DNA of 64,000 bases, from positions 1,120,001 through 1,184,000 of the forward strand of contig CM000207.1 in the NCBI GenBank assembly GCA_000002445.1. Direction: 5' to 3'. Below the pieces are notes generated by a model. The model did not search any database. It saw only the letters and a list, made by a program, of their open reading frames with translations, and was not told where the DNA came from. A program made the translations under genes and the position numbers. This DNA comes from Trypanosoma brucei. Its lineage: Eukaryota. This document shows, in pieces, positions 14,567 through 46,600 of the stretch (the stretch's first letter is position 1; each line of letters opens with the position of its first letter).

Positions 14567-16964
14567 GCGCACTTTTTCAACCACCGCTTTTCTTTACAAA
14601 CTCTAGTCCCTTTAAATGGCTCTTTGAACACACCTCCACAAAGTTTACCAAGAAGTAAAAAATGAGTGAAAACGGAGCAGAAGATGCCTGCCGCGTTGAG
14701 CAGTGCACTCACTTGCCTGTGCGCATTGTGATGGCCATACTGTTTTCAACGCCCACTAAAAAATGACCATTCCTCTCATTATTTAAGCGAATGAACTATA
14801 TATTTACAAAACATTTTTGCATGTATTAGTTTATATCAAAAGTGCCAATTTTCTAACCAGAACAAGGGGATGCACAACTGCGAAAACAGCGTTACTAAAA
14901 TAAAATTAGGTAGCAAACGCAGAATCTGATTTGGTGCATGCAGGTGCTGGGGAATTTGTGATATTTTCCAGTTTGAATTCTTAAGAATTGTACACCTTTG
15001 CTTTCGGTAAAAATTCTCAACTTCTTTCAGCTTGGCTTTTGCATCCTATTTAGCTTTAGCTTTAGCGTTTCGTTGGTATTTTTGATTTTCCACTATCTGT
15101 AATTCTGGATTCGTTACCCGCTACGACTGCAACAAATCCACGCCTCTACCTTCCATTAAAAGTTCATCTATATACTGAATTGGCTTTTGATTTTTTTCTT
15201 TAGTTAGCACCTTGCTTCTCAATTTCGAATTTCCTCCACCACACTTCCCATACCTACATCAACTGACTTCTAATTTGAAAGTTATTTTCTCACCATCTTC
15301 TAGTTTATCCGGGCGTGGTTTTGTCCATTTTCAACTCTGCCCTCTCTAATTTTGGAATGGGTTGTAAAAGCCACTTCTGACGGGTTCAAATTGTTTGGAC
15401 CGTCGACACTCGACGCCATTTTGACGAAACTTCCAATGAAAGCCGGTTCTTTCCTTGATTTTCGGCCAAAAACGACGAAATTCGTTGCCTTTGTTGAGCG
15501 CCCGCCTCGCGTGACATCAAAGATTTTAATTTCCTCCACAATCTTATGACCACTTGCTCCTATAACCAAGCACTTTGACTCACCTTGACAGTTCCTTTCG
15601 ACAACCTCCCACCCGCTGGCGGCCAGATCTCCTACACAGAAACGGTTGTGTCCTTGTTCTCTCTGTGGAAACATATTTATTCTTTCATCAATATTCCTCC
15701 CGTTTACAGTGCCAGTTTTGTTTCCTCTTTTCGTAAAGCTTCTGACTCCCCAGTTTCGCCAGTGATCCTCTAATCACCATAATTCATGCGAGGTCACACA
15801 CCCTGATAAAATTAAGGCATCTTTACCATGCCAACTTTAACATGTCAAGGAAGGTTTAGGACATTTACAACGAGCCCTTAGTTTATTCTATCTGTTCACA
15901 AACCCTCACTCAAAGTCCCTGTTTTGATATACCACAGACCTTTGTGGAGCCGCCTGAGTTTAGAGGAATTTCCGATCCAGCGATGGTATTTCTTATCCCT
16001 GCACCGGTTGAACAAGTGAGGAATTCGTCATAAAAGGTGGCGCATTCGAATGTGATGATATTCAATCCGCAGTTTAAACCACCAGCATTGCCTAATTTTC
16101 CGAAGCGAAGTTTTTTCCGGGACAAAACATACGCATAACTTCTTTATGATTTTCCCTAAACAAGAAAGAATCAAATTTGATGTTGTCATAATTTTTCAAT
16201 AATAATAACAAAGAAAAGATATTAGCACTCTCTGAGGTTCGCTCACTTAAATTTTAAATGCAGATATTAATAGTGGTAAGTCTCGTGAGCCACTCTTTCA
16301 CTTTCTAAGAGTAGAGCAAACGACTCCAGCTCCTGAAGGTGTTTTGGAAAAGCAGCTCTCTCCGCAACCTCTTTTTGAAATTGTGAAGTATGATATTCCT
16401 AGATCTATTAGGAATACACGACCTCCGATGCTGAAACAAACAAAAACATTGCTTACTTACTAGCCATTAGCCCCGTAGTTAAAAACCTTTACTAGAGTTT
16501 TAATAAGTCATCTTTTTGACTCAAAAGAGGTAACGTGTCATGTGTATGATATCAATCACTACACTTGATGCGAACTCATCCTCACGCACTACATACAGAG
16601 TGCCTGCAGAGTCAGGAAACTTTGTGTAAAAACAACAAAAAACCTCCGCGTTTCTTCCTTAAGTTTGTAGACAATATTTTGAAGTAATTATATTGTGGGC
16701 TAAAACTGATCCATAATTACTTCCTTTCTCTCCAGCTCCACCTTCTCGTCGCACCATAATTGCCTTTAGAAGAGGTAATAAATCACCTGTTTTTCTCAAG
16801 TACAACTGCGACGTTGTCGTTATGGTTTGTTTTTCCCTTCTAGAACGTTAATCATCCACATTCCATGTAACCTTTACCTTTATAAAATATGACACTAAAA
16901 TCCACTATTATCCACATTTATATTGTTATTATTAACATAAAGAAGCCACGCGTGTTAGATTGCG

Positions 16965-18110
16965 TTATATCAATAGCAACAAATACACCAACAGAGGTGA
17001 AATGATTTGAGTTTCATTTTTTGGTCGAAGTGGCTTTTGTGATTGTCGTGACGATTCTGTAGTGTTTGTTTCTCTTGAACTAAACGGATCAGTGTCCGTA
17101 GTAGTTTGCGTATTTGTATTTGCATTTGTACCTGATGTTACGGATGCCTCGCTCTCTGCTGCTGTTTGAGGGTGTTGTGGGTGTGGCTGAGCTGGGAGTG
17201 GTTTATTTTTTTCTTCCACATTTTGCTCCGGGGGTTGCACAACAGGTTGTGAAACCCTAGGTTGTTGGTGCGTTTTCCCTCCTTCTGGATTATTTTCTTT
17301 CGATACTGGCGGCCCCTCATTCTTTCTTGCCTCGTTTTGAGGGTTGGCCAGTTTTTCGATAAGTTTTTCCAGTCGTGTAAGCCACTCGACGTTCAGCCTT
17401 CCCGTTTCCTCACCTCCCAGTTTGTACATAACACAAGGGGCGTCCCTCAGATTATCTGAAGCTCCGCAGGATTGAGTGATTGGTGGACTTCCGTGTCCAA
17501 AGCGCTTTGTTTCGCTGTTTCCCGTTCCTCTTTCCCTTTCCTTTAGTTTTGTTGAAAGATTCTCCTTCATTGTTTTCAAAGTTTTGGCATCAGGTCTCGC
17601 AGCGTAAATTGCTGTGGAACATTTTTCCATAACGCTTTTCCAATGCTGTTCTGCTTGTGTTCCGTTGCTCCAGCTTTATTCACCATTTTGCCATATGTTG
17701 CTTTCATAGCACAGATTGACCATTTCGCCTTTACCATTTTGTGGCTTGCACAAACACAGAAGATCTACTGCCAACGCTTTACCTGCAAAAACAACTTCAC
17801 TCGACGTCACTGCATCTACGTAACCGCAGTCATTATAGCGTCGATCTTTTCCATTCCAATTAAGGGAGCCATCACTTCCATCTCCGTACAATATTGTGTT
17901 TATGGTAGTGTTATATTCGTTTTCATTGTCGCCTACTTCATCCTCGTTTTGTTTAACCAACTCTCGTATTCCCAGTGTTAAATTTAAAAAACTGCATAGT
18001 GTGTCAAATTCTTCTTTATTCTTTACGGAGCCGTCTGGGGATGCCTGACAACTCACTTCTTTTATCACCAAAACCAGGCATATCAAAAACCTAACTGAGT
18101 ATTTCCACAT
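16965..18110 (-). pseudogene. VSG-like (B-type) surface protein gene inactivated by a nonsense mutation; the intact paralogue is 38886..40031
   Basis: Copy 2 encodes an uninterrupted 381-aa protein (...NIWQNGEESWSNG...). In copy 1 the minus-strand codon GAA (Glu) is TAA, so plus-strand 17676-17678 reads tta where the partner has ttc at 39596-39598. This splits the gene into ORFs 17676..18110 and 16965..17630. Only 3 other amino-acid differences separate the copies. Confidence 0.8.
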
Positions 18111-19013
18111 TTTCTTGGCTTTCCCGTCTAACTCCTAAGTTTCAGAGGAAGAATTTGTTCAGCGAGTTTCGCAAACATTAAAACATATTTTTGATCTTCA
18201 AATAGAAGCGCAAATTTATATTATACATGCACCATCATACAAGTAATGCACCACGTTAGAATGTGAAAACATTCAGTTAAATTACTGATGGGTAAGCATC
18301 ATTCGCTGCTGGGGCAAATCATTGTTGCATTCAGAGTCGACAACTAATCAATTATGTGCAATTTTGCTTTGCAACAAAAGAAATGCTTATTTTCTTGATG
18401 TGCGTGTTTACTCTTCACCCCTGCGGATCACCATTAACAGGAGCAAACCCTCTTCTTCATCACTTTAAAAACAGAAAAAATGCATCACATACTAGTTCTC
18501 ACACGCTCCAAAAAATTTCGCTTTATAATGTACTTTTTAGAAAGGTTTTCATGGTCCACATGGCTTCAGTGGTCATTCAATTTCACGACAGGTTACCTCT
18601 CTACACAGATCGCGCAGTGCACCACTCCAATAGTCCCTTTTTTACTTCATACCCTTCATAGACTCTGACCCTGTGAAGAGGGGGAGTAGAAGCATGCTCA
18701 CTCGTGGATCGCGTCCGCAGAAAAAATAAAAATATTCTATTACTATATACGCGGACTACGCTACAAGTATAGAATCCTATAATCCATTATGAATGTGTTT
18801 TCTGTTCTTTAGACCGAGGTGTACGCATTTACACCTTCCTACAGTCAAGCTATACGCACAAATCATAGAACGAAATGATAAATTGTAACGGGGGTAAAAC
18901 GTAATGGATGTGTCTCCAAACACGATTATCATCGAATCAATATAGCTAAAGTGATGTGGACTCCAAGTTAGTAATCCCAAAAACAAAACCATTGCACAAA
19001 ATACAACATTGAA

Positions 19014-20129
19014 TCACATAACCAACATTTCTGCAAAAAATATTAGACCTATTATGGCGTGTTGCTTCCTCATTTTGAATCCTTCTTCATCTATAACATC
19101 GTCTTCATCCTCACCTCCCTTGCGCTTCTTCCCACTCTCCTTGAAATATCTACGCACTATCGGGCTCTGAGTTAACAATTCTTTTAGTTTATTTTCATGC
19201 TTTGCAAAGGATGTAAGGGTTGGCTGTACATCACGGTACTGTTTTGTAATACTTTCATATCCTCTTCTAACCAAAGTGTAGTTCTTGATCAGTTCGCGCA
19301 CCATGTCACTAGATTTCAGAATAACGGCAGAATCTTTTTTGTAGGTAACAAACCCTCCAGTAGTCCCCACTATGAAAGATCCAGGTCCTCCATTTGCAAC
19401 CTTTTCCGTGCCCATGATCCAGCACTTTGTGCTGTTATCGGCTGTTAGTTCGACTTCTCGGTTAGCTGTGTATTTTTTAAGCACAGACAATATACCATCA
19501 TCTGAATTATCCTCAGTGAAAGACATATTACATTTGTTTGGGGCTTCCGCTGCTTCGTATTTGCAATTACCTTCCCCACCACTTCCACATCCATTCTCAC
19601 CTCCCGAAGAGCCTGCTTCCTTCACCAAACAACACCATTTACTTTCTTCATCCTTCGTTTTCTCAAACAATACTACCAAATCCCTCAATACTTGTCCAAT
19701 TGACAGTGATGCATTCACAACATGATAGGAGACTCTCACAATGTCTAAGAAACTAGCATCCATTACCTGAAGAGCATTATCCATATTATTCATTACTTTT
19801 TCCATTTCCACATATGTTTTCTTTACATTTTTCATCTCACTTCCATTAACAACCCCTATCTTCTCCAGACCCTGCACTATTGCTTTCCATGTTCTCCCCT
19901 TTACACCATGCCGATGCCGCCATTCCCGAAACTTATCTACCATTCCTGTCGCATTTTGGTGCTTCTTCAGAATCTCAGCACTCACAACCCTTAAGGCATG
20001 ACTGAGGTTACACAATGTTTCAGCTCCCTTGAGAGTCATAGCCTTTCCAGAAGGTTGCCCCTCCACTGTCCCAGTGACAATGCCAAACACTGTCAGGCAC
20101 ACTGCAAGAAAAAGTGATATCACCTTCAT
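19014..20129 (-). CDS. VSG-like surface glycoprotein (371 aa), signal peptide plus C-terminal hydrophobic tail
   Basis: ATG start verified. Signal peptide MKVISLFLAVCLTVFGIVTGTVEG. A Cys-containing central block (CCLVKEAGSSGGENGCGSGGEGNCKYEA). C-terminal acidic stretch then hydrophobic AIIGLIFFAEMLVM. Same family organisation as the neighbouring B-type genes. A paralogue lies at 40935..42050 with 6 aa differences. Confidence 0.65.
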   Translation of the reverse strand: MKVISLFLAVCLTVFGIVTGTVEGQPSGKAMTLKGAETLCNLSHALRVVSAEILKKHQNATGMVDKFREWRHRHGVKGRTWKAIVQGLEKIGVVNGSEMKNVKKTYVEMEKVMNNMDNALQVMDASFLDIVRVSYHVVNASLSIGQVLRDLVVLFEKTKDEESKWCCLVKEAGSSGGENGCGSGGEGNCKYEAAEAPNKCNMSFTEDNSDDGILSVLKKYTANREVELTADNSTKCWIMGTEKVANGGPGSFIVGTTGGFVTYKKDSAVILKSSDMVRELIKNYTLVRRGYESITKQYRDVQPTLTSFAKHENKLKELLTQSPIVRRYFKESGKKRKGGEDEDDVIDEEGFKMRKQHAIIGLIFFAEMLVM

Positions 20130-20296
20130 TATTTATCTAAAAACGAAACAAGTTTACTTGAGGCAATTTAATACAGTATATCTCATTAGAAACTAACACG
20201 CACATGAACACACATATGCATACATACACACCATTTTAAATGCAACAAAGACGCAAAAAAAACATAACATAACATATTTGGTAATGTAATATTAAA

Positions 20297-21715
20297 CTAA
20301 AAGATAAGAATAAGAGATAAGAATAATAACAATATAAACCCCCACGTTTCCATATTCAAATGAGTAAGTCCATCATTATTTACCTCAGTATTATCACCTT
20401 CGCTGTCACCCTTTACTCGGCTACTTTTCCATAGCTCTGCATCACCACCTAGTTTCACCTCAAGAAATATTTCCTCGGCCTCGTGTTGATACTCTTCCAA
20501 CTCATGAAGATGACTGTCAGCTTCTTTTGAATATTTATCCATTTCTTGCAGTTGCTCGGTAGCGTTAGTAAGACGATTGTACCATGGAATTCCACCATTT
20601 TCAAGTGTGTACTTGTAACTGACACATGTGAATCCAGCAGTATGACCCGTGCATGTCCGATTTTCGTTTTTATCAGTTCTCACATAACCAAAAATACCCT
20701 TCACCTGATATTTATCCTGTTCCAAATTCACTAAGGCATCAAACTGAGCTAATGCACTTTTCAAAGTCTTTACATTCGATGCAACGTTTTTGTACACACA
20801 AGCTTTACTAATCACATCCCATGCCTCAGTGTAATTGTATGTTATGTTGTCTGGGCTGCAGGGGCTGCTATTGGCCTCACAGTAATTTGCCATCATTGTC
20901 CAACTTCCATTTTTTGGTCTTCTTATTTCATCTTTACAAGGACAATTGAACCCATTATAAACACTATCACTATATTTGCCCTTACCGCTCTCTTCTTTTT
21001 TTTTATCTTCATTATCTTCATTATCTTCTTCCTCTTTCTCGTCTCTTTTCTGCCTCATATCTTCAGTCACATTTATAGCCTCTCCCACACATAGACAGAA
21101 AAAGTCATTGATTAGTGTCTTTCCAACCAGCTTGTCTCCATAAGAACCGCAACTCGTGCCTGCATTATCAATACTATTGAACAGCAGTGACTTGTTTCCC
21201 CTCATGGCTTTCTCTAGAGTTTTATTCTCATTTCGTGCCACATCCACAGCGTCTCCATACACAGCTTTCAACATATTGTCTTCGGCAGAACGACTTGCAT
21301 TTAACGCTTTTGTCCTATTCACTTCTATTTCTTCCTTCAGCTTTTTCGCCTTTTCAAGCAGTTGTATCATCAACTGATATGCTGTCGTGCTGTTAGATGA
21401 ATTGCTCGAGCCTTTATTACTTCCAGCGGCCCCCACCACACTGACCATTTCCTCCAACTCATTCAGAATATTAGCTTCTTTCTCACGGTTCTTGAAAGAG
21501 GGTTGTGGTGCTTCTGCCTGCGTAATTCGGTAAATTTTGCACAGTGTCTCGAACTCACCGACGTTATGGTATTTGTAACTATCGTCGATGTAATCCGTAA
21601 TGCTTCCCCAGTCAACCATATCAGGCCGCCATTTGTACGACCCCATATCTCCCTGAAAGGAAGGAGATAAAACAGCTGCAAAAAGCCCAACAGCGAACAC
21701 TATTTCACACCTCAT
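20297..21715 (-). CDS. Variant surface glycoprotein (472 aa), B-type N-terminal domain, GPI-signal-like C-terminus
   Basis: ATG verified. Signal peptide MRCEIVFAVGLFAAVLSPSFQG. B-type hallmark GKTLINDFFCLCVGEAINV. Multiple N-glycosylation sequons. C-terminal WGFILLLFLSLILIF. A paralogue lies at 42219..43637. Confidence 0.8.
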   Translation of the reverse strand: MRCEIVFAVGLFAAVLSPSFQGDMGSYKWRPDMVDWGSITDYIDDSYKYHNVGEFETLCKIYRITQAEAPQPSFKNREKEANILNELEEMVSVVGAAGSNKGSSNSSNSTTAYQLMIQLLEKAKKLKEEIEVNRTKALNASRSAEDNMLKAVYGDAVDVARNENKTLEKAMRGNKSLLFNSIDNAGTSCGSYGDKLVGKTLINDFFCLCVGEAINVTEDMRQKRDEKEEEDNEDNEDKKKEESGKGKYSDSVYNGFNCPCKDEIRRPKNGSWTMMANYCEANSSPCSPDNITYNYTEAWDVISKACVYKNVASNVKTLKSALAQFDALVNLEQDKYQVKGIFGYVRTDKNENRTCTGHTAGFTCVSYKYTLENGGIPWYNRLTNATEQLQEMDKYSKEADSHLHELEEYQHEAEEIFLEVKLGGDAELWKSSRVKGDSEGDNTEVNNDGLTHLNMETWGFILLLFLSLILIF

Positions 21716-24700
21716 TGTGGCTGTTTTTTTTACTTTTATCAGTTAAACAAATTGGAGAAAAACCTCATCATCGCAGTCATTATTGTTATTGGTAGACGCA
21801 CTCAACAGACGTATACAATGAAAAATATTGAAATTAATAAGTGCCTGGCTCAAACCAACTACAACAGGACCCAACAAAGAGTAAATCACATTCCAAAACA
21901 CATTTACATGAGTTCCCTCTCGTCATGCTGGATATCAACATAAAGTTCCTTTACAACTGTTTTGTTTCTCCAATATCTTCCTCCACCAAATTAACCTCCA
22001 CTACCTTAACTACCATTCTGGCTTGTCCCAATTTTCTAACTGAGTTGCGCTTCTATTTTCTGTATTTCCTCGTTAGTGACTTATCCACTACCCTAATGTG
22101 TACCTGCACTTTCATACTATTTTTTTTTCACATCCTGTACCAACTCCTTTAAACTCTGCTTCTGAGTCCCATTTAGCATATCCCGCTCTTTTCATAAGCA
22201 CATTGAAAATACTCTTCGTTACTCTTTTTGTGAGCATGTGCAGCTTCCCGTCCTCCATTTTCTTAGACGACACATTGTTTAATATAAAAGTTGTATCTTA
22301 AAAATACCATCAGTGGACACTTATTATTGAAGCCCTTGTTATACGGTGACGTTACGGGATATAATGTCAGTCACCAACACAAAAAAAACGGCTCCAGAAT
22401 AACAAGAGACCCTCTTTGTCACCACCCTCGTTAGAATTATTTACCACAATCAAAGATGTCACCATTCTTATAGATACGCTGGTGACAAAAAAGGAGGTCA
22501 CATACGTAACCATTTATCCTCTCAGTGAACTCTCATCACCTTTACTCCACACAAGTTCGTTACATTAGCAAAAAACAAACGGCAAAAACGCTACTTGGGT
22601 TAGCTCAAAATCAAACACTCCATCCTTACAGCAAATACAGAGAGCATTCACACACTCCATTCCCCCACAAAATACAGATGGTGGAGACAGCCACAGTTAT
22701 CACAACTCACAATTAAGATAACTCAAGCAAAGACACTCCAACGAAATAGACGACCAATAACACGAAACATGTGAGCACGGACATGCAACGTCTTGCATGT
22801 ATTTTATTATGGAGTAGGGGGAACGTATCCGAAAGTATTTGCTACACAGTAAAATTAGTAGTATTAGCCACGGCGCTATCGAGATGTGTCGAGCAGTACC
22901 GAATCACAGTTGTTGTGGATTTCGTTGAAATGTGGGTAGAAAAGAGGTAATGTTGGATAACGTGGCAACAAGCACGGAAGATGGATGGCCAGTAGTAGAG
23001 GCAAACATGTTAAATCTACCTTACTGGAACCGTTACTCTAAATGTGACAGAACACAGTGCCTTCATTTGCAACACTTATCACCGCACATATTTTCTTCCT
23101 TGCTCGACACATCGGCTTCCAGCCAAACACAAATATGGGAGACTACTGCAACGGTTTCCATTACTAACACTGTGTTTTTTCTGATTCCAGCGGCTTTTCA
23201 TACACGACCATGCAAAAAAACCAGCCCTTCAAACTATTCAACCGGCAATAATAAAGTGCACTAGGATAGTGCATTTTACTAGCTATTCCGAAAGATGTTC
23301 TGCCCTTGCTGTTGAGCTTACTGTAGCAATTTATCGCAGTGTTTCGTACCACCTTATCAAACGTAGTCAACTGCACATCCTCTACCATTTCGCTCCCGTT
23401 TTACTTAATTGGTATTCTTGTTACAATGCTGGATCCTTGACATTACCTGTTTCTTTTGCTGTTATCATTTAGGAAGGTTGAGACCCGTCATGTCCCTTTT
23501 GTGAATCCCATCCGTGACCAAATCAATTACAAACGGAGTGCCATGAATGCTTCTCGCTGTGTCCCCACTGTTGTGACAATAACACTTGTAATGCATGTCA
23601 GTCTAACAGCGTTTTATAACCTTTGAGCAGATTTCAATGGGCCCAATATAGACCACAAGGTGGGTAGCTATTGCATTGGCGTCTTCGTTCCGTCAACTCC
23701 TTTTTCCTGACTCAACAAGTCTCACCCAATCGAGTGCCAGCGCGCCAAAGCAACTGCATACTGTTCATTAGGTAGATCATTCCGCAAAGTTTTTTTTGGT
23801 CAGTCTGCTATATAGAGTGGACCGTCTAGGAAGGCTCTTTGTTTTTACCTCCTGCAAGGAAGGGTGAGAAACGCGCTCTCGTACGCCATTGCCTCTCGCT
23901 GCCTGCTCATGCATTCGAATTATTAAAAAGGTGCGCTCAGACATTCTCCCTGGTCCTACTCAACCAATGTCAGAAATGTCGGGTAAGATTTGTGTTTGAG
24001 GGTTGTGAGCAATCTTTGTTGAGGAAACTACCTGTCTACTGCCACCGCAACATCTGGCTGCTTGCAGGTTTATTTCCCCTTCCCGTGTTTCTGGCGCTGT
24101 GCAAATGCAAACACTTTCTCGTCTCCGAAGAGCAAGGTCTCACACTTCACTTGAATGGGCACTTCACCTTCGCCAGCAATCCCAGTTAGTGGCACTAACA
24201 AACCGCTTCAAGGAATACATTTGCTTTTGATAATTGTGCCACTTACTACGCCACTCTACAAGAAACACAAAACACAAACTAAACATGACGGCTTGAAACG
24301 ATAACGTTAAGACATGGTCACTGGGGAAGGGGTAAAGAAGACACATTATCTGCGATCAGGTTCACCTTACTAGCATGCATTTGTAGAATCATGTATATCG
24401 TGAATTCAACCACTGAAACAAAGAAAACTGCAGACCATTTACCAGCGCCTTCATGTTACAGTGCACCTATTATTATTAAGCTCAGAATAATGCGACGGCT
24501 AAGATTATTTGCAGCACGCATGCTCTTGTGGTTTAATTAAATCTGTCGTGGAAGCAAACCCGCAAAAGTAATGAAAAAAATATATAAGCAATGCACCCTT
24601 TAAACAAGTTGCGTTTCTTAAATGAAAAAACATCGGTGAGGCACCGTTTTTACCGTCATGAATTTCCTCGTTCAGATTATCACGCTTTTGAAACTTGTTT

Positions 24701-25330
24701 CCAATTGACTTAAGTTCTTTACATATCTTTACCTTTAGCAATTCACTCACTTATTGAGTATTCGTCCCTTCAAATCCTTTATGCGCTTCAGTTATCCGCA
24801 TTGATTAAACACATTTTTAGGTTAGAAATATAATCTCACATTTGACTGCTGAAACAATCACTCTCTTCCACGCAGCGCAAGCCTACGTTTCCGTTAAGCC
24901 GCTCTGCAGTATGTTAACCCTTGCGTGTTCAGTGACTCTTATTATACATCTTTAAAGAAACTCCTCATTGCGGTTTTTTGATAGTATTAACCTCATATTT
25001 CCTTTTCCTATTTAAAATCAATTATTTGAGATCGTAAATCGTTTGTTGTATCACATTTCTGCATTTTTTAATGGTTGTACTTTTCCGCTTACACGATAAA
25101 TAGCCTTAATTTCTTTTCCTCTCTTGCGACTTTTAATTTTAGCATGTTCGCTCTTACTAATTCAGAGTTATTCGACCATCTTACAATGACTTGCCACAAC
25201 AGCCCATGCACATATCCCTTAATGAAAACACTTGCAAGTTAGTTACTGATTCACAGCCTTACTTCGACCTATGCGGCGTTCACTTTATTCAGCAGTTGTG
25301 ACCTGATGCATCAGCGTAAAGCAACAGACA

Positions 25331-35084: not shown

Positions 35085-35344
35085 CGTTTTCTTCCAGGGA
35101 TGGAGCTACAAAAATTATACGAAACACTACTAAGAAACAAAAAAAATGGTCAATACGTATAATATGATGTATGGTAAGCTATTAATATAAATTCAAAGTT
35201 AGAGTGAATACACACAAACTTAAATACCATAAGCCATTCCAATTACGTCCCCCGCCGAAAAGGCGCTATAAACGCCACAAGGGTCCCTTCCATTGCTTCC
35301 AATACCTTTTCACCATATTTTTGTGATATCGTATAGCAACATTA

Positions 35345-38885: not shown

Positions 38886-40031
38886 TTATATCAACAGCAA
38901 CAAAATCACCAACAGAGGTGAAATAACTTGAGTTTCATTTTTTGGTCGAAGTGGCTTTTGTGATTGTCGTGACGATTCTGTAGTGTTTGTTTCTCTTGAA
39001 CTAAACGGATCAGTGTCCGTAGTAGTTTGCGTATTTGTATTTGTGTTTTTGCCTGATGTTACGGATGCCTCGCTCTCTGCTGCTGTTTGAGGGTGTTGTG
39101 GGTGTGGCTGAGCTGGGAGTGGTTTATTTTTTTCTTCCACATTTTGCTCCGGGGGTTGCACAACAGGTTGTGAAACCCTAGGTTGTTGGTGCGTTTTCCC
39201 TCCTTCTGGATTATTTTCTTTCGATACTGGCGGCCCCTCATTCTTTCTTGCCTCGTTTTGAGGGTTGGCCAGTTTTTCGATAAGTTTTTCCAGTCGTGTA
39301 AGCCACTCGACGTTCAGCCTTCCCGTTTCCTCACCTCCCAGTTTGTACATAACACAAGGGGCGTCCCTCAGATTATCTGAAGCTCCGCAGGATTGAGTGA
39401 TTGGTGGACTTCCGTGTCCAAAGCGCTTTGTTTCGCTGTTTCCCGTTCCTCTTTCCCTTTCCTTTAGTTTTGTTGAAAGATTCTCCTTCATTGTTTTCAA
39501 AGTTTTGGCATCAGGTCTCGCAGCGTAAATTGCTGTGGAACATTTTTCCATAACGCTTTTCCAATGCTGTTCTGCTTGTGTTCCGTTGCTCCAGCTTTCT
39601 TCACCATTTTGCCATATGTTGCTTTCATAGCACAGATTGACCATTTCGCCTTTACCATTTTGTGGCTTGCACAAACACAGAAGATCTACTGCCAACGCTT
39701 TACCTGCAAAAATAACTTCACTCGACGTCACTGCATCTACGTAACCGCAGTCATTATAGCGTCGATCTTTTCCATTCCAATTAAGGGAGCCATCACTTCC
39801 ATCTCCGTACAATATTGTGTTTATGGTAGTGTTATATTCGTTTTCATTGTCGCCTACTTCATCCTCGTTTTGTTTAACCAACTCTCGTATTCCCAGTGTT
39901 AAATTTAAAAAACTGCATAGTGTGTCAAATTCTTCTTTATTCTTTACGGAGCCGTCTGGGGATGCCTGACAACTCACTTCTTTTATCACCAAAACCAGGC
40001 ATATCAAAAACCTAACTGAGTATTTCCACAT
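38886..40031 (-). CDS. VSG-like (B-type motif) surface glycoprotein with Thr-rich C-terminal stalk and hydrophobic tail (381 aa), the intact copy
   Basis: ATG verified (MWKYSVRFLICLVLVIKEVSCQ, a signal peptide). FAGKALAVDLLCLCKPQNG. C-terminal NTNTNTQTTTDTDP... then ISPLLVILLLLI. It is the uninterrupted paralogue of pseudogene 16965..18110. Confidence 0.75.
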   Translation of the reverse strand: MWKYSVRFLICLVLVIKEVSCQASPDGSVKNKEEFDTLCSFLNLTLGIRELVKQNEDEVGDNENEYNTTINTILYGDGSDGSLNWNGKDRRYNDCGYVDAVTSSEVIFAGKALAVDLLCLCKPQNGKGEMVNLCYESNIWQNGEESWSNGTQAEQHWKSVMEKCSTAIYAARPDAKTLKTMKENLSTKLKERERGTGNSETKRFGHGSPPITQSCGASDNLRDAPCVMYKLGGEETGRLNVEWLTRLEKLIEKLANPQNEARKNEGPPVSKENNPEGGKTHQQPRVSQPVVQPPEQNVEEKNKPLPAQPHPQHPQTAAESEASVTSGKNTNTNTQTTTDTDPFSSRETNTTESSRQSQKPLRPKNETQVISPLLVILLLLI

Positions 40032-40934
40032 TTTCTTGGCTTTCCCGTCTAACTCCTAAGTTTCAGAGGAAGAATTTGTTCAGCGAGTTTCGCAAACATT
40101 AAAACATATTTTTGATCTTCAAATAGAAGCGCAAATTTATATTATACATGCACCATCATACAAGTAATGCACCACGTTAGAATGTGAAAACATTCAGTTA
40201 AATTACTGATGGGTAAGCATCATTCGCTGCTGGGGCAAATCATTGTTGCATTCAGAGTCGACAACTAATCAATTATGTGCAATTTTGCTTTGCAACAAAA
40301 GAAATGCTTATTTTCTTGATGTGCGTGTTTACTCTTCACCCCTGCGGATCACCATTAACAGGAGCAAACCCTCTTCTTCATCACTTTAAAAACAGAAAAA
40401 ATGCATCACATACTAGTTCTCACACGCTCCAAAAAATTTCGCTTTATAATGTACTTTTTAGAAAGGTTTTCATGGTCCACATGGCTTCAGTGGTCATTCA
40501 ATTTCACGACAGGTTACCTCTCTACACAGATCGCGCAGTGCACCACTCCAATAGTCCCTTTTTTACTTCATACCCTTCATAGACTCTGACCCTGTGAAGA
40601 GGGGGAGTAGAAGCATGCTCACTCGTGGATCGCGTCCGCAGAAAAAATAAAAATATTCTATTACTATATACGCGGACTACGCTACAAGTATAGAATCCTA
40701 TAATCCATTATGAATGTGTTTTCTGTTCTTTAGACCGAGGTGTACGCATTTACACCTTCCTACAGTCAAGCTATACGCACAAATCATAGAACGAAATGAT
40801 AAATTGTAACGGGGGTAAAACGTAATGGATGTGTCTCCAAACACGATTATCATCGAATCAATATAGCTAAAGTGATGTGGACTCCAAGTTAGTAATCCCA
40901 AAAACAAAACCATTGCACAAAATACAACATTGAA

Positions 40935-42050
40935 TCACATAACCAACATTTCTGCAAAAAATATTAGACCTATTATGGCGTGTTGCTTCCTCATTTTGAA
41001 TCCTTCTTCATCTATAACATCGTCTTCATCCTCACCTCCCTTGCGCTTCCTCCCACTCTCCTTGAAATACCTACGCACCATCGGGCTCTGAGTTAACAAT
41101 TCTTTTAGTTTATTTTCATGCTTTGCAAAGGATGTAAGGGTTGGCTGTACATCACGGTACTGTTTTGTAATTCTTTCGTATCCTCTTCTAACCAAAGTGT
41201 AGTTCTTGATCAGTTCGCGCACCATGTCACTAGATTTCAGAATAACGGCAGAATCTTTTTTGTAGGTAACAAACCCTCCAGTAGTTCCCACTATGAAAGA
41301 TCCAGGTCCTCCATTTGCAACCTCTTCCGTGCCCATGATCCAGCACTTTGTGCTGTTATCGGCTGTTAGTTCGACTTCTCGGTTAGCTGTGTATTTTTCA
41401 AGCACAGACAATATACCATCATCTGAATTATCCTCAGTGAAAGACATATTACATTTGTTTGGGGCTTTTACTGCTTCGTATTTGCAATTACCTTCCCCAC
41501 CACTTCCACATCCATTCTCACCTCCCGAAGAGCCTGCTTCCTTCACCAAACAACACCATTTACTTTCTTCATCCTTCGTTTTCTCAAACAATACTACCAA
41601 ATCCCTCAATACTTGTCCAATTGACAGTGATGCATTCACAACATGATAGGAGACTCTCACAATGTCTAAGAAACTAGCATCCATTACCTGAAGAGCATTA
41701 TCCATATTATTCATTACTTTTTCCATTTCCACATATGTTTTCTTTACATTTTTCATCTCACTTCCATTAACAACCCCTATCTTCTCCAGACCCTGCACTA
41801 TTGCTTTCCATGTTCTCCCCTTTACACCATGCCGATGCCGCCATTCCCGAAACTTATCTACCATTCCTGTCGCATTTTGGTGCTTCTTCAGAATCTCAGC
41901 ACTCACAACCCTTAAGGCATGACTGAGGTTACACAATGTTTCAGCTCCCTTGAGAGTCATAGCCTTTCCAGAAGGTTGCCCCTCCACTGTCCCAGTGACA
42001 ATGCCAAACACTGTCAGGCACACTGCAAGAAAAAGTGATATCACCTTCAT
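40935..42050 (-). CDS. VSG-like surface glycoprotein (371 aa), paralogue of 19014..20129
   Basis: Identical length. 6 amino-acid differences from copy 1, mostly charge-changing (E/K, S/R, K/R). Confidence 0.65.
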   Translation of the reverse strand: MKVISLFLAVCLTVFGIVTGTVEGQPSGKAMTLKGAETLCNLSHALRVVSAEILKKHQNATGMVDKFREWRHRHGVKGRTWKAIVQGLEKIGVVNGSEMKNVKKTYVEMEKVMNNMDNALQVMDASFLDIVRVSYHVVNASLSIGQVLRDLVVLFEKTKDEESKWCCLVKEAGSSGGENGCGSGGEGNCKYEAVKAPNKCNMSFTEDNSDDGILSVLEKYTANREVELTADNSTKCWIMGTEEVANGGPGSFIVGTTGGFVTYKKDSAVILKSSDMVRELIKNYTLVRRGYERITKQYRDVQPTLTSFAKHENKLKELLTQSPMVRRYFKESGRKRKGGEDEDDVIDEEGFKMRKQHAIIGLIFFAEMLVM

Positions 42051-42218
42051 TATTTATCTAAAAACGAAACAAGTTTACTTGAGGCAATTTAATACAGTAT
42101 ATCTCATTAGAAACTAACACGCACATGAACACACATATGCATACATACACACCATTTTAAATGCAACAAAGACGCAAAAAAAAACATAACATAACATATT
42201 TGGTAATGTAATATTAAA

Positions 42219-43637
42219 CTAAAAGATAAGAATAAGAGATAAGAATAATAACAATATAAACCCCCACGTTTCCATATTCAAATGAGTAAGTCCATCATTA
42301 TTTACCTCAGTATTATCACCTTCGCTGTCACCCTTTACTCGGCTACTTTTCCATAGCTCTGCATCACCACCTAGTTTCACCTCAAGAAATATTTCCTCGG
42401 CCTCGTGTTGATACTCTTCCAACTCATGAAGATGACTGTCAGCTTCTTTTGAATATTTATCCATTTCTTGCAGTTGCTCGGTAGCGTTAGTAAGACGATT
42501 GTACCATGGAATTCCACCATTTTCAAGTGTGTACTTGTAACTGACACATGTGAATCCAGCAGTATGACCCGTGCATGTCCGATTTTCGTTTTTATCAGTT
42601 CTCACATAACCAAAAATACCCTTCACCTGATATTTATCCTGTTCCAAATTCACTAAGGCATCAAACTGAGCTAATGCACTTTTCAAAGTCTTTACATTCG
42701 ATGCAACGTTTTTGTACACACAAGCTTTACTAATCACATCCCATGCCTCAGTGTAATTGTATTTTATGTTGTCTGGGCTGCAGGGGCTGCTATTGCCCTT
42801 ACAGTAATTTGCCATCATTGTCCAACTTCCATTTTTTGGTCTTCTTATTTCATCTTTACAAGGACAATTGAACCCATTATAAACACTATCACTATATTTG
42901 CCCTTACCGCTCTCTTCTTTTTTTTTATCTTCATTATCTTCATTATCTTCTTCCTCTTTCTCGTCTCTTTTCTGCCTCATATCTTCAGTCACATTTATAG
43001 CCTCTCCCACACATAGACAGAAAAAGTCATTGATTAGTGTCTTTCCAACCAGCTTGTCTCCATAAGAACCGCAACTCGTGCCTGCATTATCAATACTATT
43101 GAACAGCAGTGACTTGTTTCCCCTCATGGCTTTCTCTAGAGTTTTATTCTCATTTCGCGCCACATCCACAGCGTCTCCATACACAGCTTTCAACATATTG
43201 TCTTCGGCAGAACGACTTGCATTTAACGCTTTTGTCCTATTCACTTCTATTTCTTCCTTCAGCTTTTTCGCCTTTTCAAGCAGTTGTATCATCAACTGAT
43301 ATGCTGTCGTGCTGTTAGATGAATTGCTCGAGCCTTTATTACTTCCAGCGGCCCCCACCACACTGACCTTTTCCTCCAACTTCTTCAGAATCTCTCCTTC
43401 CTTCTCACGGTTCTTGAAGGGGGGTTGTGGTGCTTCTGCCTGCGTAATTCGGTAAATTTTGCACAGTGTCTCGAACTCACCAACGTTATGGTATTTGTAA
43501 CTATCGTCGATGTAATCCGTAATGCTTCCCCAGTCAACCATATCAGGCCGCCATTTGTACGACCCCATATCTCCCTGAAAGGAAGGAGATAAAACAGCTG
43601 CAAAAAGCCCAACAGCGAACACTATTTCACACCTCAT
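42219..43637 (-). CDS. Variant surface glycoprotein (472 aa), paralogue of 20297..21715
   Basis: Identical length. About 10 amino-acid differences. Six of these fall within a 20-residue window (QPSFKNREKEANILNELEEM versus QPPFKNREKEGEILKKLEEK). Confidence 0.8.
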   Translation of the reverse strand: MRCEIVFAVGLFAAVLSPSFQGDMGSYKWRPDMVDWGSITDYIDDSYKYHNVGEFETLCKIYRITQAEAPQPPFKNREKEGEILKKLEEKVSVVGAAGSNKGSSNSSNSTTAYQLMIQLLEKAKKLKEEIEVNRTKALNASRSAEDNMLKAVYGDAVDVARNENKTLEKAMRGNKSLLFNSIDNAGTSCGSYGDKLVGKTLINDFFCLCVGEAINVTEDMRQKRDEKEEEDNEDNEDKKKEESGKGKYSDSVYNGFNCPCKDEIRRPKNGSWTMMANYCKGNSSPCSPDNIKYNYTEAWDVISKACVYKNVASNVKTLKSALAQFDALVNLEQDKYQVKGIFGYVRTDKNENRTCTGHTAGFTCVSYKYTLENGGIPWYNRLTNATEQLQEMDKYSKEADSHLHELEEYQHEAEEIFLEVKLGGDAELWKSSRVKGDSEGDNTEVNNDGLTHLNMETWGFILLLFLSLILIF

Positions 43638-46600
43638 TGTGGCTGTTTTTTTTACTTTTATCAGTTAAACAAATTGGAGAAAAACCTCATCATCGCAGTC
43701 ATTATTGCTATTGGTAGACGCACTCAACAGACGTATACAATGAAAAATATTGAAATTAATAAGTGCCTGGCTCAAACCAACTACAACAGGACCCAACAAA
43801 GAGTAAATCACATTCCAAAACACATTTACATGAGTTCCCTCTCGTCATGCTGGATATCAACATAAAGTTCCTTTACAACTGTTTTGTTTCTCCAATATCT
43901 TCCTCCACCAAATTAACCTCCACTACCTTAACTACCATTCTGGCTTGTCCCAATTTTCTAACTGAGTTGCGCTTCTATTTTCTGTATTTCCTCGTTAGTG
44001 ACTTATCCACTACCCTAATGTGTACCTGCACTTTCATACTATTTTTTTTTCACATCCTGTACCAACTCCTTTAAACTCTGCTTCTGAGTCCCATTTAGCA
44101 TATCCCGCTCTTTTCATAAGCACATTGACAATACTCTTCGTTACTCTTTTTGTGAGCATGTGCAGCTTCCCGTCCTCCATTTTCTTAGACGACACATTGT
44201 TTAATATAAAAGTTGTATCTTAAAAATACCATCAGTGGACACTTATTATTGAAGCCCTTGTTATACGGTGACGTTACGGGATATAATGTCAGTCACCAAC
44301 ACAAAAAAAACGGCTCCAGAATAACAAGAGACCCTCTTTGTCACCACCCTCGTTAGAATTATTTACCACAATCAAAGATGTCACCATTCTTATAGATACG
44401 CTGGTGACAAAAAAGGAGGTCACATACGTAACCATTTATCCTCTCAGTGAACTCTCATCACCTTTACTCCACACAAGTTCGTTACATTAGCAAAAAACAA
44501 ACGGCAAAAACGCTACTTGGGTTAGCTCAAAATCAAACACTCCATCCTTACAGCAAATACAGAGAGCATTCACACACTCCATTCCCCCACAAAATACAGA
44601 TGGTGGAGACAGCCACAGTTATCACAACTCACAATTAAGATAACTCAAGCAAAGACACTCCAACGAAATAGAAGACCAATAACACGAAACATGTGAGCAC
44701 GGACATACAACGTCTTGCATGTATTTTATTATGGAGTAGGGGGAACGTATCCGAAAGTATTTGCTACACAGTAAAATTACTACTATTAGCCACGGCGCTA
44801 TCGAGATGTGTCGAGCAGTACCGAAGCACAGTTGCCATAGATTTCGTTGAAAAGTAGGTAGAAAAGAGGTAATGTTGGATAACGTGGCAACAAGCACGGA
44901 AGATGGATGGCCAGTAGTAGAGGCAAACATGATAACTCTACCTTACTGGAACCGTTACTCTAAATGTGACAGAACACAGTGCCGTCATTTGCAACACTTA
45001 TCACCGCACATATTTTCCTCCTTACTCGACACATCGGCTTTCAGTCAAGCACAAATAGGGGAGATTATTGCTATGATTCCCATTACTAACGGTGTGGGTT
45101 TTCTTGCCGTGAGTAGTGAGTAGCACACGTCCATTGCAGAATTCTAAACCCTCAATTGATTTAACCGGTCACTTATGGGATGCGATTTGGCGTGCAGTTT
45201 ATTGGTAATTCTCAGAGATGCACTGCCTTTGGTCGTGAGTCTACGATAACAATTTACTGCAAACGTTTGTACCACCTTATCAAACGTAGTCAACTGCACA
45301 TCCTCTACCATTTCGCTCCCGTTTTACTTAATTGGTATTCTTGTTACAATGCTGGATCCTTGACATTACCTGTTTCTTTTGCTGTTATCATTTAGGAAGG
45401 TTGAGACCCGTCATGTCCCTTTTGTGAATCCCATCCGTGACCAAATCAATTACAAACGGAGTGCCATGAATGCTTCTCGCTGTGTCCCCACTGTTGTGAC
45501 AATAACACTTGTAATGCATGTCAGTCTAACAGCGTTTTATAACCTTTGAGCAGATTTCAATGGGCCCAATATAGACCACAAGGTGGGTAGCTATTGCATT
45601 GGCGTCTTCGTTCCGTCAACCCTATTTCCTGACTCAACAAGTCTCGCCCAATTGAGTGCCACCGCACCAAAGCAACTGCATACTGTTCATTAGGTAGATC
45701 ATTCCGCAAAGTTATTTCGGTCACCTCGCCACGCAGACTAGCCAGCCCCAGAGGGTTTGTTGTTTTTACCTTCTGCTGAGGAGGTTGAAAATCACGTTCT
45801 CGTACGCCCTTTTCCCCCGCTGCCTGCTCATGCATTCGAATTATTCAAATGGTGCGCTCAGACATTCTCTCTGGTCCTACTCAACTAGTATCAGAAGTGT
45901 CGGTTAAGATTTGTGAGTGAGAGTTCTGAGCAGCTTCTTTCCAGGATACTGCTTGTCTACAGTCGCTACAACTTTTGGTTGCTTTCAGGCTTAAACACTA
46001 CTTCCTTTGTTTCCACCACTGTGCAAATGCAAACGCATTCTTGTTTCCCCCTTCCCTGTTCCACAGTATCCGGCGCGCTCCTAAGAATTGAATTGCCTGT
46101 ATCCCATGGTTACGGCACTTCCTTGGGTCGTACAATTGGTCCAGACAGTCTCTGCTAGTCTTGTTGCAGGTTTCTACCTCGGAAGAGTACGGTCTAACAC
46201 TCTGCTTGATTGGGCACCTCACTTTCGCCAGAAACTACAGTTACTGGCATAACCAATTAGCTTCAAGTAATACGCTTATATTGGTATTCACGAGATTTAT
46301 TACGCGTAAGTTGAAGTACTCATTAACAAGCGATAAGTAGAGTAAAGTTATAATCTTAAAGTCCAGTAGTGTCAAAAAAAGATAGTATATCCGCGGCCAG
46401 GTTAATCTTGCCAGTACACGTAGAATTATGCAAATAATAAAGTAATCAACCAAAAGAAAAAGTGCTAGCAATGTATTTTTCAGCGTCTTCTCGTTAAAAT
46501 TTTATTATTTCTGCGCTTAAGTTTGCGAGTTTCAATACAGTTTGCAGCAATTGTGCTACTATCTTAGTCAAATGGGTTTTGCAATCAACGCTTACAAAAA

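What the first reader, a model, noticed from the sequence alone, without database searches (positions are those of the whole stretch)
15792..46270. Nested segmental duplication of a 3-gene VSG/VSG-like cassette with a homogenised core and diverged flanks
Module A (15792-24210 and 37711-46270) is duplicated with a 21.92 kb offset. The gene-bearing core (about 16990-22750) is nearly identical between the copies, including non-coding spacers. The 1.2-1.5 kb on both sides is only about 90% identical, with indels (for example ORF 15910..16125 versus 37844..38053, and 22932..23264 versus 44872..45123). A simple recent duplication should give uniform identity across the unit. A sharp identity step suggests an older duplication whose core has since been overwritten by gene conversion. 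Antigen-gene arrays in trypanosomes are known to undergo this kind of concerted evolution and mosaic formation. Here the conversion tract boundaries are visible to within about 100 bp.
Basis: seen in the sequence. Interest (0 to 1): 0.6.

Follow-up and report, generated by a model that had tools for sequence, protein, structure and literature searches.

The report
Gene-converted tandem surface-gene duplication, trypanosome
Two neighbouring copies of a block of surface-protein genes on Trypanosoma brucei chromosome 9 have almost identical middles but old, diverged edges, which is a clear but expected example of gene conversion keeping duplicated genes alike.

Summary
Window 15791-24126 and 37710-46048 align at 95.8%. 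A two-breakpoint fit gives a core (17009-22858 / 38930-44780) with 37 differences in 5850 bp (0.63%) and flanks with 12.9% differences.

The window is T. brucei brucei TREU927 chromosome 9, a chromosome-internal "VSG/ESAG island". The three genes are a VSG-related (VR) gene, an ESAG11-like gene and an ESAG2-like gene, not archive VSGs.

The layout is tandem, not nested: unit 1 is A1-X-B1 and unit 2 is A2-Y-B2. Module B holds a second, younger homogenised tract (35397-37676 = 48473-50752) with 1 difference in 2280 bp.

Every junction also occurs in another genome (DAL972, T. b. equiperdum IVM-t1 or T. equiperdum OVI), so a simple mis-assembly is unlikely. Flank differences are old, split evenly between the copies and partly shared across strains. 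Array genes are 84-92.5% identical between strains, against 99.1-99.6% for neighbouring housekeeping genes.

The best explanation is an old tandem duplication followed by at least two homology-driven gene-conversion events (concerted evolution). This mechanism is well known for T. brucei tandem arrays, and the duplication itself was probably noted in 2010. Interest is low to moderate.

The parts
15791..37712 (-). Tandem unit 1 = module A1 + spacer X + module B1
   Evidence: Self-BLAST; architecture inferred
37710..50789 (-). Tandem unit 2 = module A2 + spacer Y + module B2
   Evidence: Self-BLAST. OVI contig L009 matches 45589-50069 at 99.84%
15791..17008 (-). A1 left flank (3'UTR/intergenic downstream of VR_A1 plus its last ~15 codons). 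About 88-90% identical to A2 37710-38929, with indels
   Evidence: old shared variants
17009..22858 (-). A1 homogenised core (gene-conversion tract), paired with A2 38930-44780. 37 differences in 5850 bp
   Evidence: Two-breakpoint ML fit; difference list
38930..44780 (-). A2 homogenised core
16965..18110 (-). VR_A1, a VSG-related gene, pseudogene. In-frame TAA at codon 145 (17676-17678), derived relative to A2, DAL972 and IVM-t1
19014..20129 (-). ESAG11-like gene, copy A1 (EAN76756), 371 aa
   Evidence: Exact protein match
20297..21715 (-). ESAG2-like gene, copy A1 (EAN76757), 472 aa, VSG_B domain
22859..24126 (-). A1 right flank (upstream of ESAG2). Mosaic: 95% to 23102, a 62% patch at 23119-23345, an identical island at 23346-23697, then 65-90%
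   Evidence: The A1-type patch is present in OVI contig L003 and the A2-type in IVM-t1
24127..34309 (-). Spacer X of unit 1. Contains ESAG9 (25331-26119, EAN76758; probably Tb09.160.5400, by gene order only) and an ESAG1 pseudogene fragment (29256-29720). Window 24558-33516 is absent from IVM-t1
   Evidence: OVI contig L003 matches 22872-28297 at 98.2%
34308..35084 (-). ESAG9_B1 (EAN76760), 258 aa. Only 31% aa identity to ESAG9_B2, but 95% nt identity to the syntenic IVM-t1 gene
35397..37676 (-). B1 homogenised core, paired with 48473-50752. 1 difference in 2280 bp; abrupt edges with 35-57 bp diverged margins
36114..37217 (-). VR_B1 (Tb09.v1.0290, EAN76761), 367 aa, VSG_B domain
37710..37713 (.). 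Tandem junction. B homology ends and A homology begins here. Collinear with the B'|A junction of IVM-t1
38886..40031 (-). VR_A2 = VR16 (Tb09.v1.0300, EAN76762), intact, 381 aa, VSG_B domain
40935..42050 (-). ESAG11-like gene, copy A2 (EAN76763)
42219..43637 (-). ESAG2-like gene, copy A2 (EAN76764)
46049..47382 (-). Spacer Y of unit 2
   Evidence: present in OVI contig L009
47379..48164 (-). ESAG9_B2 (EAN76765), 261 aa. Identical protein in T. equiperdum OVI
48473..50752 (-). B2 homogenised core
49190..50293 (-). VR_B2 (Tb09.160.5440, EAN76766), 367 aa. Differs from VR_B1 by one residue (R250S)

Best explanation
The window is a chromosome-internal VSG/ESAG 'island' on T. brucei TREU927 chromosome 9. 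It lies at the 3' end of a minus-strand polycistron, between housekeeping genes. An ancestral unit [VR_A - ESAG11-like - ESAG2-like - ESAG9 - VR_B] was duplicated in tandem long ago, before the TREU927, T. equiperdum OVI and IVM-t1 lineages separated. The copies then diverged by about 10-13% in sequence and by large indels: spacer X is 10.2 kb and spacer Y is 1.3 kb. Later, homology-driven non-reciprocal recombination between the misaligned paralogues (interlocus gene conversion, or equivalently a double crossover) overwrote two separate segments. One is a 5.85-kb tract covering almost all of VR_A, ESAG11, ESAG2 and 1.1 kb upstream; the copies now differ there by 0.63%. The other is a younger 2.28-kb tract covering VR_B and its UTRs; the copies differ there by 0.04%. 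The tracts end where homology decays, with no specific recombination signal. Since conversion, the A cores have picked up point changes, two clustered micro-patches and a nonsense mutation that inactivates VR_A1. Shown here: the identity step, the two tracts, the age and symmetry of the flank differences, junction support in other genomes, and within-genome similarity far above between-strain similarity. Inferred: non-reciprocity, the direction of transfer, and the enzymology.
For: Identity step: 0.63% differences inside against 12.9% outside, 2*delta-lnL 592 against <=19.5 in shuffles. Second tract with a different period (13,076 bp against 21,921 bp) and a lower divergence, 1 in 2280. At the A-core rate about 14 differences would be expected in the B core, so one event cannot explain both tracts. 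Flank differences are old and symmetric: 47 unique to A1, 39 unique to A2, 22 shared with DAL972/IVM-t1, 2 other. The A2-type 23119-23345 patch is 95% identical to IVM-t1, and the A1-type patch is in OVI contig L003. The B|A junction at 37710-37713 is collinear in the IVM-t1 assembly. L|A is contiguous in DAL972. A1-flank to X and A2-flank to Y to B2 are each carried by OVI contigs at 98.2% and 99.84%. Concerted-evolution signature: array CDS are 84-92.5% identical between strains, while flanking housekeeping CDS are 99.1-99.6%. In VR_A, DAL972 and IVM-t1 are 93-99% alike, but both TREU927 copies are 76-90% from them. Copy number and arrangement differ in all three assembled genomes. Gene conversion and unequal crossing-over are established homogenising forces in T. 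brucei tandem arrays (PMC1855330).
Against: The direction and non-reciprocity of the transfer cannot be shown, because derived states in the core split 15:14 between the copies. The right A boundary is graded rather than sharp, and the right flank contains a 352-bp identical island and a 62% patch, so more events or third-party donors are needed than the simple model supplies. The origin of the TREU927-specific core haplotype is unknown. I had no read-level or long-read data for TREU927 itself, so I cannot prove that the two units lie in cis on one homologue. The old gene identifiers suggest that a 13-kb repeat period was added during finishing (inference).
Confidence: 0.75

Rival explanations
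1. Repeated unequal crossing-over between already mosaic, strongly diverged haplotypes (sister chromatids or homologues), with no discrete conversion event. A unit carrying the present cores was re-duplicated recently, and later crossovers in the flanks swapped in older flank haplotypes.
For: Copy number and order of the A and B modules differ among TREU927, DAL972 and IVM-t1, as unequal crossing-over would produce. Between-strain informative sites are strongly clustered, 297 runs against 511 +/- 13, which shows frequent recombination among haplotypes. Both flank types circulate in other strains.
Against: A single crossover gives one breakpoint per hybrid copy. Here each tract has two breakpoints, and the two tracts have different periods and ages, so several precisely placed crossovers are needed, which in effect is conversion. 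Spacers X and Y differ by 8.8 kb even though they lie between the two identical tracts.
Confidence: 0.1
2. Assembly artefact. Either the near-identical cores are consensus sequence shared between repeat copies, or two allelic haplotypes of the diploid TREU927 were joined in tandem when a 13-kb segment (genes Tb09.v1.0290-0330) was inserted into contig Tb09.160 during finishing.
For: Identifiers show VR_B1 and VR_A2 carrying 'v1' numbers and VR_B2 carrying Tb09.160.5440, which fits one B period being added late (the identifiers of the genes between them and the interpretation are inferred). The 0.63% core difference is within the range plausible for allelic variation. The B cores are essentially identical.
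Against: All four kinds of junction are found in other genomes: L|A in DAL972, B|A in IVM-t1, A1-flank to X and A2-flank to Y to B2 in OVI. OVI carries both unit-specific contexts, and its short-read contigs break exactly at the edges of the identical tracts (22872 and 45589), as expected for true repeats. The cores keep 37 differences, including a nonsense mutation, so they were resolved separately. Microarray probe sets for Tb09.v1.0300 and Tb09.v1.0290 each detect one additional gene (PMC2771046).
Confidence: 0.08
3. A recent duplication of the whole 8.3-kb module, after which the flanks of one copy were overwritten by ectopic conversion from paralogues elsewhere, or mutated rapidly.
For: In the right flank patch 22859-23340, A1 is usually the outlier: 50 sites where A2 = DAL = IVM. 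That fits local replacement of A1 sequence by an outside donor. Micro-patches of clustered changes exist even inside the core.
Against: In the left flank the unique states are symmetric (47 against 39) and 22 sites are shared across strains, so both flank versions are old. The A1-type and A2-type flanks each occur in other strains. Tandem A/B adjacency predates the strain split. No closer ectopic paralogue was found for any ESAG11 segment of the TREU927 core.
Confidence: 0.07

Closest known systems
Concerted evolution of T. brucei tandem gene arrays by gene conversion and unequal crossing-over (Jackson 2007, PMC1855330)
   Same: Paralogues within the genome are far more alike than syntenic copies in other strains. 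There are discrete recombination breakpoints. Homogenised coding regions sit beside diverged UTR and intergenic sequence. Structural heterogeneity (spacers X and Y) limits how far homogenisation spreads. Sequence mosaics are present.
   Different: This is a multigene unit (three genes in one tract) with only two copies, separated by 13-22 kb, rather than a head-to-tail single-gene array. That survey's text does not name these genes; its ESAG and GRESAG4 arrays appear to be other loci.
[quoted passage not shown] 2010, PMC2854126; Supplementary Fig. [quoted passage not shown]
   Same: Chromosome 9, an internal island, a segmental duplication in T. b. brucei of an atypical or VSG-related gene together with insertion or deletion of ESAGs, and a single copy in DAL972. 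This matches what I see.
   Different: The figure is not held in the library, so I could not confirm that it shows this locus. [quoted passage not shown] Here the syntenic genes are 84-92.5% identical and mosaic between strains, and homogenised within TREU927.
Segmental (mosaic) VSG gene conversion in antigenic variation
   Same: Homology-dependent, patchy copying between VSG-fold genes; VR_A, VR_B and ESAG2 carry the Pfam VSG_B domain.
   Different: There are no 70-bp repeats and no conserved VSG 3' 16-mer. The location is chromosome-internal, not subtelomeric or in an expression site. The genes are VR/GRESAG, not archive VSGs. The outcome here is homogenisation of germline paralogues, not creation of an expressed mosaic.
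Phosphoglycerate kinase and hexose transporter arrays of T. brucei, classic chimaeric or converted tandem copies (cited in PMC1855330)
   Same: Gene conversion between neighbouring paralogues with visible tract limits; retained differences in the flanks could allow differential regulation.
   Different: Those are housekeeping or metabolic genes with known isoform functions. Here the products are surface glycoprotein-like proteins of unknown function, and one converted copy is already a pseudogene.

Membership tests
Concerted evolution by interlocus gene conversion in a tandem duplication | Paralogues within one genome are more similar to each other than to syntenic copies in related genomes | tested here: met
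   Cores are 99.4% (A) and 99.96% (B) identical within TREU927, against 84-92.5% identity to DAL972 and IVM-t1. Flanking housekeeping CDS are 99.1-99.6%.
Concerted evolution by interlocus gene conversion in a tandem duplication | A discrete tract with two breakpoints, embedded in older and more diverged homology | tested here: met
   A core 17009-22858 has 0.63% differences against 12.9% in homologous flanks. B core 35397-37676 has 35-57 bp diverged margins.
Concerted evolution by interlocus gene conversion in a tandem duplication | The duplication is older than the homogenised tract (flank variants are old) | tested here: met
   Left-flank sites split 47 unique to A1, 39 unique to A2 and 22 shared across strains. 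The B|A junction is shared with IVM-t1. Both unit contexts are present in OVI.
Concerted evolution by interlocus gene conversion in a tandem duplication | Non-reciprocal transfer with an identifiable donor and acceptor | not testable with these tools
   Derived states in the core split 15:14. Answering this needs population haplotypes or an experiment.
VSG-archive segmental gene conversion (antigenic variation) | 70-bp repeats upstream and the conserved VSG 3'UTR 16-mer as recombination boundaries | tested here: not met
   No match to the 16-mer with up to 2 mismatches, or to the 70-bp repeat core with up to 3 mismatches, anywhere in the window. VR genes are reported to lack 70-bp repeats (PMC2771046).
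VSG-archive segmental gene conversion (antigenic variation) | Subtelomeric or expression-site location; canonical VSG genes | tested here: not met
   The array is flanked by an RNB-domain protein, an ARF-like protein and an adenosine transporter. The products are annotated VSG-related, ESAG11, ESAG2 and ESAG9.
Pfam VSG_B (PF13206) domain proteins | Significant match above the gathering threshold | tested here: met
   VR_A2 8e-26, ESAG2 3.7e-24, VR_B 1.6e-34 and the 493-aa VSG 2.9e-73. ESAG11 and the ESAG9 proteins have no Pfam hit.
Retroelement (ingi/RIME)-mediated segmental duplication | A retroelement at the duplication boundaries | tested here: inconclusive
   No reverse-transcriptase or other retroelement Pfam hit in ORFs of at least 75 aa in 24.1-34.3 kb, and no shared motif at the tract edges. 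No ingi or RIME reference sequence was available for a direct search.
Assembly artefact (collapsed or expanded repeat) | Junctions and copy-specific sequence unsupported by any independent genome | tested here: not met
   All junction types were found in DAL972, IVM-t1 or OVI. The cis arrangement in TREU927 itself was not testable.

The most novel reading that the evidence does not exclude
This chromosome-internal VR/GRESAG island may be a hypervariable, recombination-driven surface-protein locus. On this reading, strains carry deeply diverged mosaic alleles (array genes 84-92.5% nucleotide identity between strains; VR_B about 72% and ESAG11 about 83% amino-acid identity, against about 99% for neighbouring genes) that are reshuffled in 50-500 bp patches and at the same time homogenised within each genome. 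That would be a Pol II-transcribed, non-telomeric counterpart of VSG mosaic formation, producing population-level diversity in proteins usually treated as invariant. It would contradict the published view that such islands escape frequent gene conversion.
Probability: 0.3. Interest if true: 0.5.

Novelty: new member of a known kind. Interest (0 to 1): 0.3.

Why it matters
The locus is a clean, well-delimited example of concerted evolution in a multigene surface-protein unit. Two conversion tracts of different age sit next to unconverted 3'UTR and intergenic sequence and highly diverged ESAG9 genes. It therefore shows where homogenisation stops: at the decay of homology and at structural heterogeneity. 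In practice it matters for annotation and expression work, because VR16/VR_B, ESAG11 and ESAG2 reads or probes cannot tell the two copies apart, and one VR copy is a pseudogene. It also flags that this island is 10-20 times more diverged between strains than its neighbours. That could be relevant to strain-specific host-parasite interactions, and to the stumpy-enriched ESAG9 genes embedded in it. It does not reveal a new mechanism.

Tried and rejected
(1) Ectopic donor for the TREU927 core. A sliding comparison of ESAG11 with nine paralogues, plus BLAST of A2 against two IVM-t1 paralogous loci (L005 and L008, about 80%), found no paralogue closer than the DAL972 syntenic copy, except at aa 300-330, where DAL972 itself is the outlier. 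TREU927 paralogous loci could not be fetched.

(2) Positive selection on post-conversion differences. pN/pS is about 0.5 for VR_A, ESAG11 and ESAG2, so there is no excess of replacement changes.

(3) Recombination signals at the edges. There is no VSG 16-mer, no 70-bp repeat core, and no k-mer longer than 9 nt shared among the four tract edges.

(4) tRNA and Rfam scans of the window found nothing.

(5) Homologue search with VR_A returned only the query and a 41% relative, so VR_A orthologues in DAL972 and IVM-t1 are unannotated. I recovered them from the DNA instead.

(6) OVI contig L010, found through ESAG11, turned out to be a different ESAG11-ESAG1 locus and not the A core.

(7) Retroelement involvement: there are no RT-like ORFs in spacer X, only an ESAG1 pseudogene fragment.

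(8) Confirming that Jackson 2010 Fig. S1 shows this locus: the figure is not held as text.


Full report
**1. What the sequence is**

Ten ORF products of the window are exact matches to annotated proteins of Trypanosoma brucei brucei TREU927 on a 3.06-Mb record, which is chromosome 9. All array genes lie on the minus strand. In window order they are:
- a putative VSG (13103-14566)
- VR_A1 (16965-18110, split by a stop codon)
- ESAG11-like (19014-20129)
- ESAG2-like (20297-21715)
- ESAG9 (25331-26119)
- an ESAG1 pseudogene fragment (29256-29720; Pfam ESAG1 2.6e-21)
- ESAG9_B1 (34308-35084)
- VR_B1 (36114-37217; Tb09.v1.0290)
- VR_A2 (38886-40031; Tb09.v1.0300, called VR16 in PMC2771046)
- ESAG11-like (40935-42050)
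- ESAG2-like (42219-43637)
- ESAG9_B2 (47379-48164)
- VR_B2 (49190-50293; Tb09.160.5440)

The array is bracketed by housekeeping genes: an RNB-domain protein and an ARF-like protein on the plus strand at 1-9.4 kb, and an adenosine transporter at 57062-58450. VR_A, VR_B and ESAG2 carry the Pfam VSG_B domain; ESAG11 and the ESAG9 proteins have no Pfam hit. This is therefore a chromosome-internal "VSG/ESAG island" at the 3' end of a polycistron next to a convergent strand-switch region. It is not part of the VSG archive.

**2. The observation**

Self-BLAST finds exactly two direct repeats:
- A: 15791-24126 against 37710-46048 (95.8%, 8355 columns)
- B: 34310-37712 against 47383-50789 (86.6%)

A global alignment of the A copies has 359 differing columns in 8352. 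A two-breakpoint likelihood scan puts a core at 17009-22858 (A2 38930-44780) with 37 differences in 5850 columns (0.63%), against 322 in 2502 (12.9%) outside. The fit gives 2*delta-lnL = 592, while shuffled columns never exceed 19.5. Identical runs reach 1336 bp.

The left edge lies between 17006 and 17130, inside the last codons of VR_A. The right side is more complicated:
- 22751-23102: about 5% divergence
- 23119-23345: a 62%-identity patch
- 23346-23697: a 352-bp identical island
- from there to 24126: 65-90% identity

**3. A second tract and the true architecture**

Module B shows the same pattern. Window 35397-37676 equals 48473-50752 except for one base (36468, which gives R250S in VR_B). 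The edges are abrupt, with 35-57 bp strongly diverged margins. The adjacent ESAG9 genes are only about 50% identical in nucleotides and 31% in amino acids.

B1 ends exactly where A2 begins, at 37710-37713. The region is therefore a tandem duplication of a larger unit. Unit 1 is A1 + X (10.2 kb) + B1, and unit 2 is A2 + Y (1.3 kb) + B2. It is not a nested duplication.

The two homogenised tracts have different periods (21,921 and 13,076 bp). They also differ significantly in divergence: 0.63% against 0.04%, where about 14 differences would be expected in B at the A rate and 1 is seen. One event cannot explain both.

**4. Is it real?**

I assembled the syntenic region of T. b. gambiense DAL972 (FN554972.1, 895866-930751; L001 + L004) and of T. 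b. equiperdum IVM-t1 (CM010680.1, 636931-679163; L002 + L006 + L007). I also recovered two T. equiperdum OVI contigs.
- DAL972 has left context - A - VR_B - right context: a single A and no ESAG9.
- IVM-t1 has left context - a fragment of A's right flank - B' - A - short X' - ESAG9_B1-like + VR_B - right context.
- The B'|A junction of IVM-t1 is collinear, base for base, with the TREU927 B1|A2 junction.
- OVI contig L003 matches 22872-28297 at 98.2% (A1 flank to X).
- OVI contig L009 matches 45589-50069 at 99.84% (A2 flank to Y to ESAG9_B2 to VR_B2).
- Both OVI contigs end at the edges of the identical tracts, as short-read assemblies do at true repeats.

Every junction type in the window therefore exists in another genome, and both unit-specific contexts coexist in OVI. 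The remaining caveat concerns TREU927 itself. The old gene identifiers seen here (Tb09.v1.0290 for VR_B1 and Tb09.v1.0300 for VR_A2, against Tb09.160.5440 for VR_B2) suggest that one 13-kb period was added during finishing. Without reads I cannot prove that the two units lie in cis rather than on two merged haplotypes.

**5. Age of the flanks against the cores**

I polarised the A1/A2 differences with DAL972 and IVM-t1. Of the 110 left-flank differences:
- 47 have A1 as the unique state
- 39 have A2 as the unique state
- 22 are split between DAL972 and IVM-t1, so they are polymorphisms shared across strains
- 2 match neither copy

This pattern indicates an old, symmetric divergence. It does not fit a recent overwriting of one flank.

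In the 23119-23345 patch the A2 version is 95% identical to IVM-t1, and the A1 version is found in OVI. Inside the core, derived states are split 15:14, so both copies have mutated since homogenisation. The changes include:
- a derived nonsense codon in VR_A1 (17676-17678)
- a derived cluster of 8 changes in 40 bp in ESAG2_A1 (21460-21499)
- a CCG>TTA change in ESAG11_A2 (19547-19549)

pN/pS between the copies is about 0.5 in all three genes.

**6. Concerted-evolution signature**

Flanking housekeeping CDS are 99.1-99.6% identical between TREU927 and DAL972 or IVM-t1. Array CDS are only 84-92.5% identical. VR_B proteins of other strains are 72-75% identical to the TREU927 protein.

In VR_A, DAL972 and IVM-t1 are 93-99% alike, but both TREU927 copies are 76-90% from them. 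Among 831 informative sites in the core, the pattern types (TREU927-unique, DAL972-unique, IVM-t1-unique) form 297 runs, against 511 +/- 13 expected. The between-strain history is therefore itself a recombinational mosaic. IVM-t1's own B' and B share short 100% tracts.

Within-genome identity far above between-genome identity, together with old flanks and shared junctions, is the standard signature of interlocus gene conversion or unequal crossing-over.

**7. Mechanism**

The best-supported model has three parts: an old tandem duplication, divergence that included large indels in the spacers, and then at least two homology-driven conversion events.

There is no VSG-type recombination signal. 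This agrees with the report that VR genes lack 70-bp repeats (PMC2771046). The four tract edges share no motif longer than 9 nt. The tracts appear simply to end where homology decays: the B tract fills almost the whole shared B segment.

I considered three rivals:
- Serial unequal crossovers between mosaic haplotypes. This is mechanistically close, but needs several precisely placed exchanges.
- Assembly or haplotype-merge artefact. This is largely countered by the junction evidence.
- Recent duplication with overwritten flanks. This is contradicted by the symmetry and age of the flank variants.

**8. Relation to what is known**

Concerted evolution with gene conversion, mosaics and limits set by structural heterogeneity was described genome-wide for T. 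brucei tandem arrays in PMC1855330.

[quoted passage not shown] Its Supplementary Fig. [quoted passage not shown] This is probably the same locus, but the figure is not held, so I could not verify it.

I found no paper describing the conversion tracts themselves. [quoted passage not shown] The data for this island point the other way, and that is the most novel aspect.

**9. Verdict**

The finding is real and correctly interpreted in its essentials. It is an instance of a well-known process at a locus whose duplication was probably already noted. Novelty: new member of a known kind. Interest: 0.3.

Noticed in passing
window 17676-17678 (within VR_A1, 16965-18110, minus strand): In-frame TAA at codon 145 of VR_A1. 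A2, DAL972 and IVM-t1 all have GAA, so one copy was inactivated by a single recent nonsense mutation inside the homogenised tract.
   Followed up: yes
window 15791-50789 compared with DAL972 (L001 + L004) and IVM-t1 (L002 + L006 + L007): Array genes are 84-92.5% identical between strains, while adjacent housekeeping CDS are 99.1-99.6%. The phylogenetic signal switches every few hundred bp (297 runs against 511 expected). This conflicts with the published statement that VSG/ESAG islands escape frequent gene conversion.
   Followed up: partly
window 21460-21499 (ESAG2_A1) and 19547-19549 (ESAG11_A2): Clustered multi-nucleotide differences inside the otherwise identical core: 8 changes in 40 bp derived in A1, and CCG>TTA derived in A2. 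They suggest micro-conversion from an unknown donor or multi-nucleotide mutation events.
   Followed up: partly
window 23119-23345: A 227-bp patch that is only 62% identical between A1 and A2, lying between about 95% sequence and a 352-bp identical island. The A2 version matches IVM-t1 (95%) and the A1 version matches OVI contig L003. The donor is unknown.
   Followed up: partly
window 29256-29720 (minus strand); spacer 24558-33516: An ESAG1 pseudogene fragment (Pfam ESAG1 2.6e-21) lies in an 8.9-kb stretch of spacer X that is absent from IVM-t1. Otherwise this stretch contains only short ORFs.
   Followed up: partly
window 9400-13100: Plus-strand genes end near 9.4 kb and minus-strand genes end at 13.1 kb, so this is a convergent strand-switch region directly beside the array. 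GC skew is high at 8-10 kb. There is no tRNA or Rfam hit.
   Followed up: partly
window 53700-56400: An AT-rich region (GC about 26%) with several simple repeats ((TAA)10, A-rich 10-23 bp units), between the array and the adenosine transporter gene.
   Followed up: no
L007/L006 (IVM-t1 B' and B modules; aligned to window 36316-36404 and 37198-37388): The two VR_B-type modules of IVM-t1 are 50-90% identical overall but share short 100% tracts. Patchy conversion therefore also operates in that genome.
   Followed up: partly
window 17100-17140 and 36200-36300 (C-terminal coding regions of VR_A and VR_B): VR_A and VR_B are only about 25% identical, yet both carry a C-terminal NTNTQTTT low-complexity motif. 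The left edge of the A tract falls in the repetitive DNA that encodes it.
   Followed up: no
window 36114-48164 (genes from Tb09.v1.0290 onward): Old systematic identifiers suggest that one 13-kb repeat period was inserted into contig Tb09.160, between about .5430 and .5440, during finishing of chromosome 9. This is an inference from the identifiers seen for VR_B1, VR_A2 and VR_B2 plus gene order, and it bears on the assembly-artefact question.
   Followed up: partly
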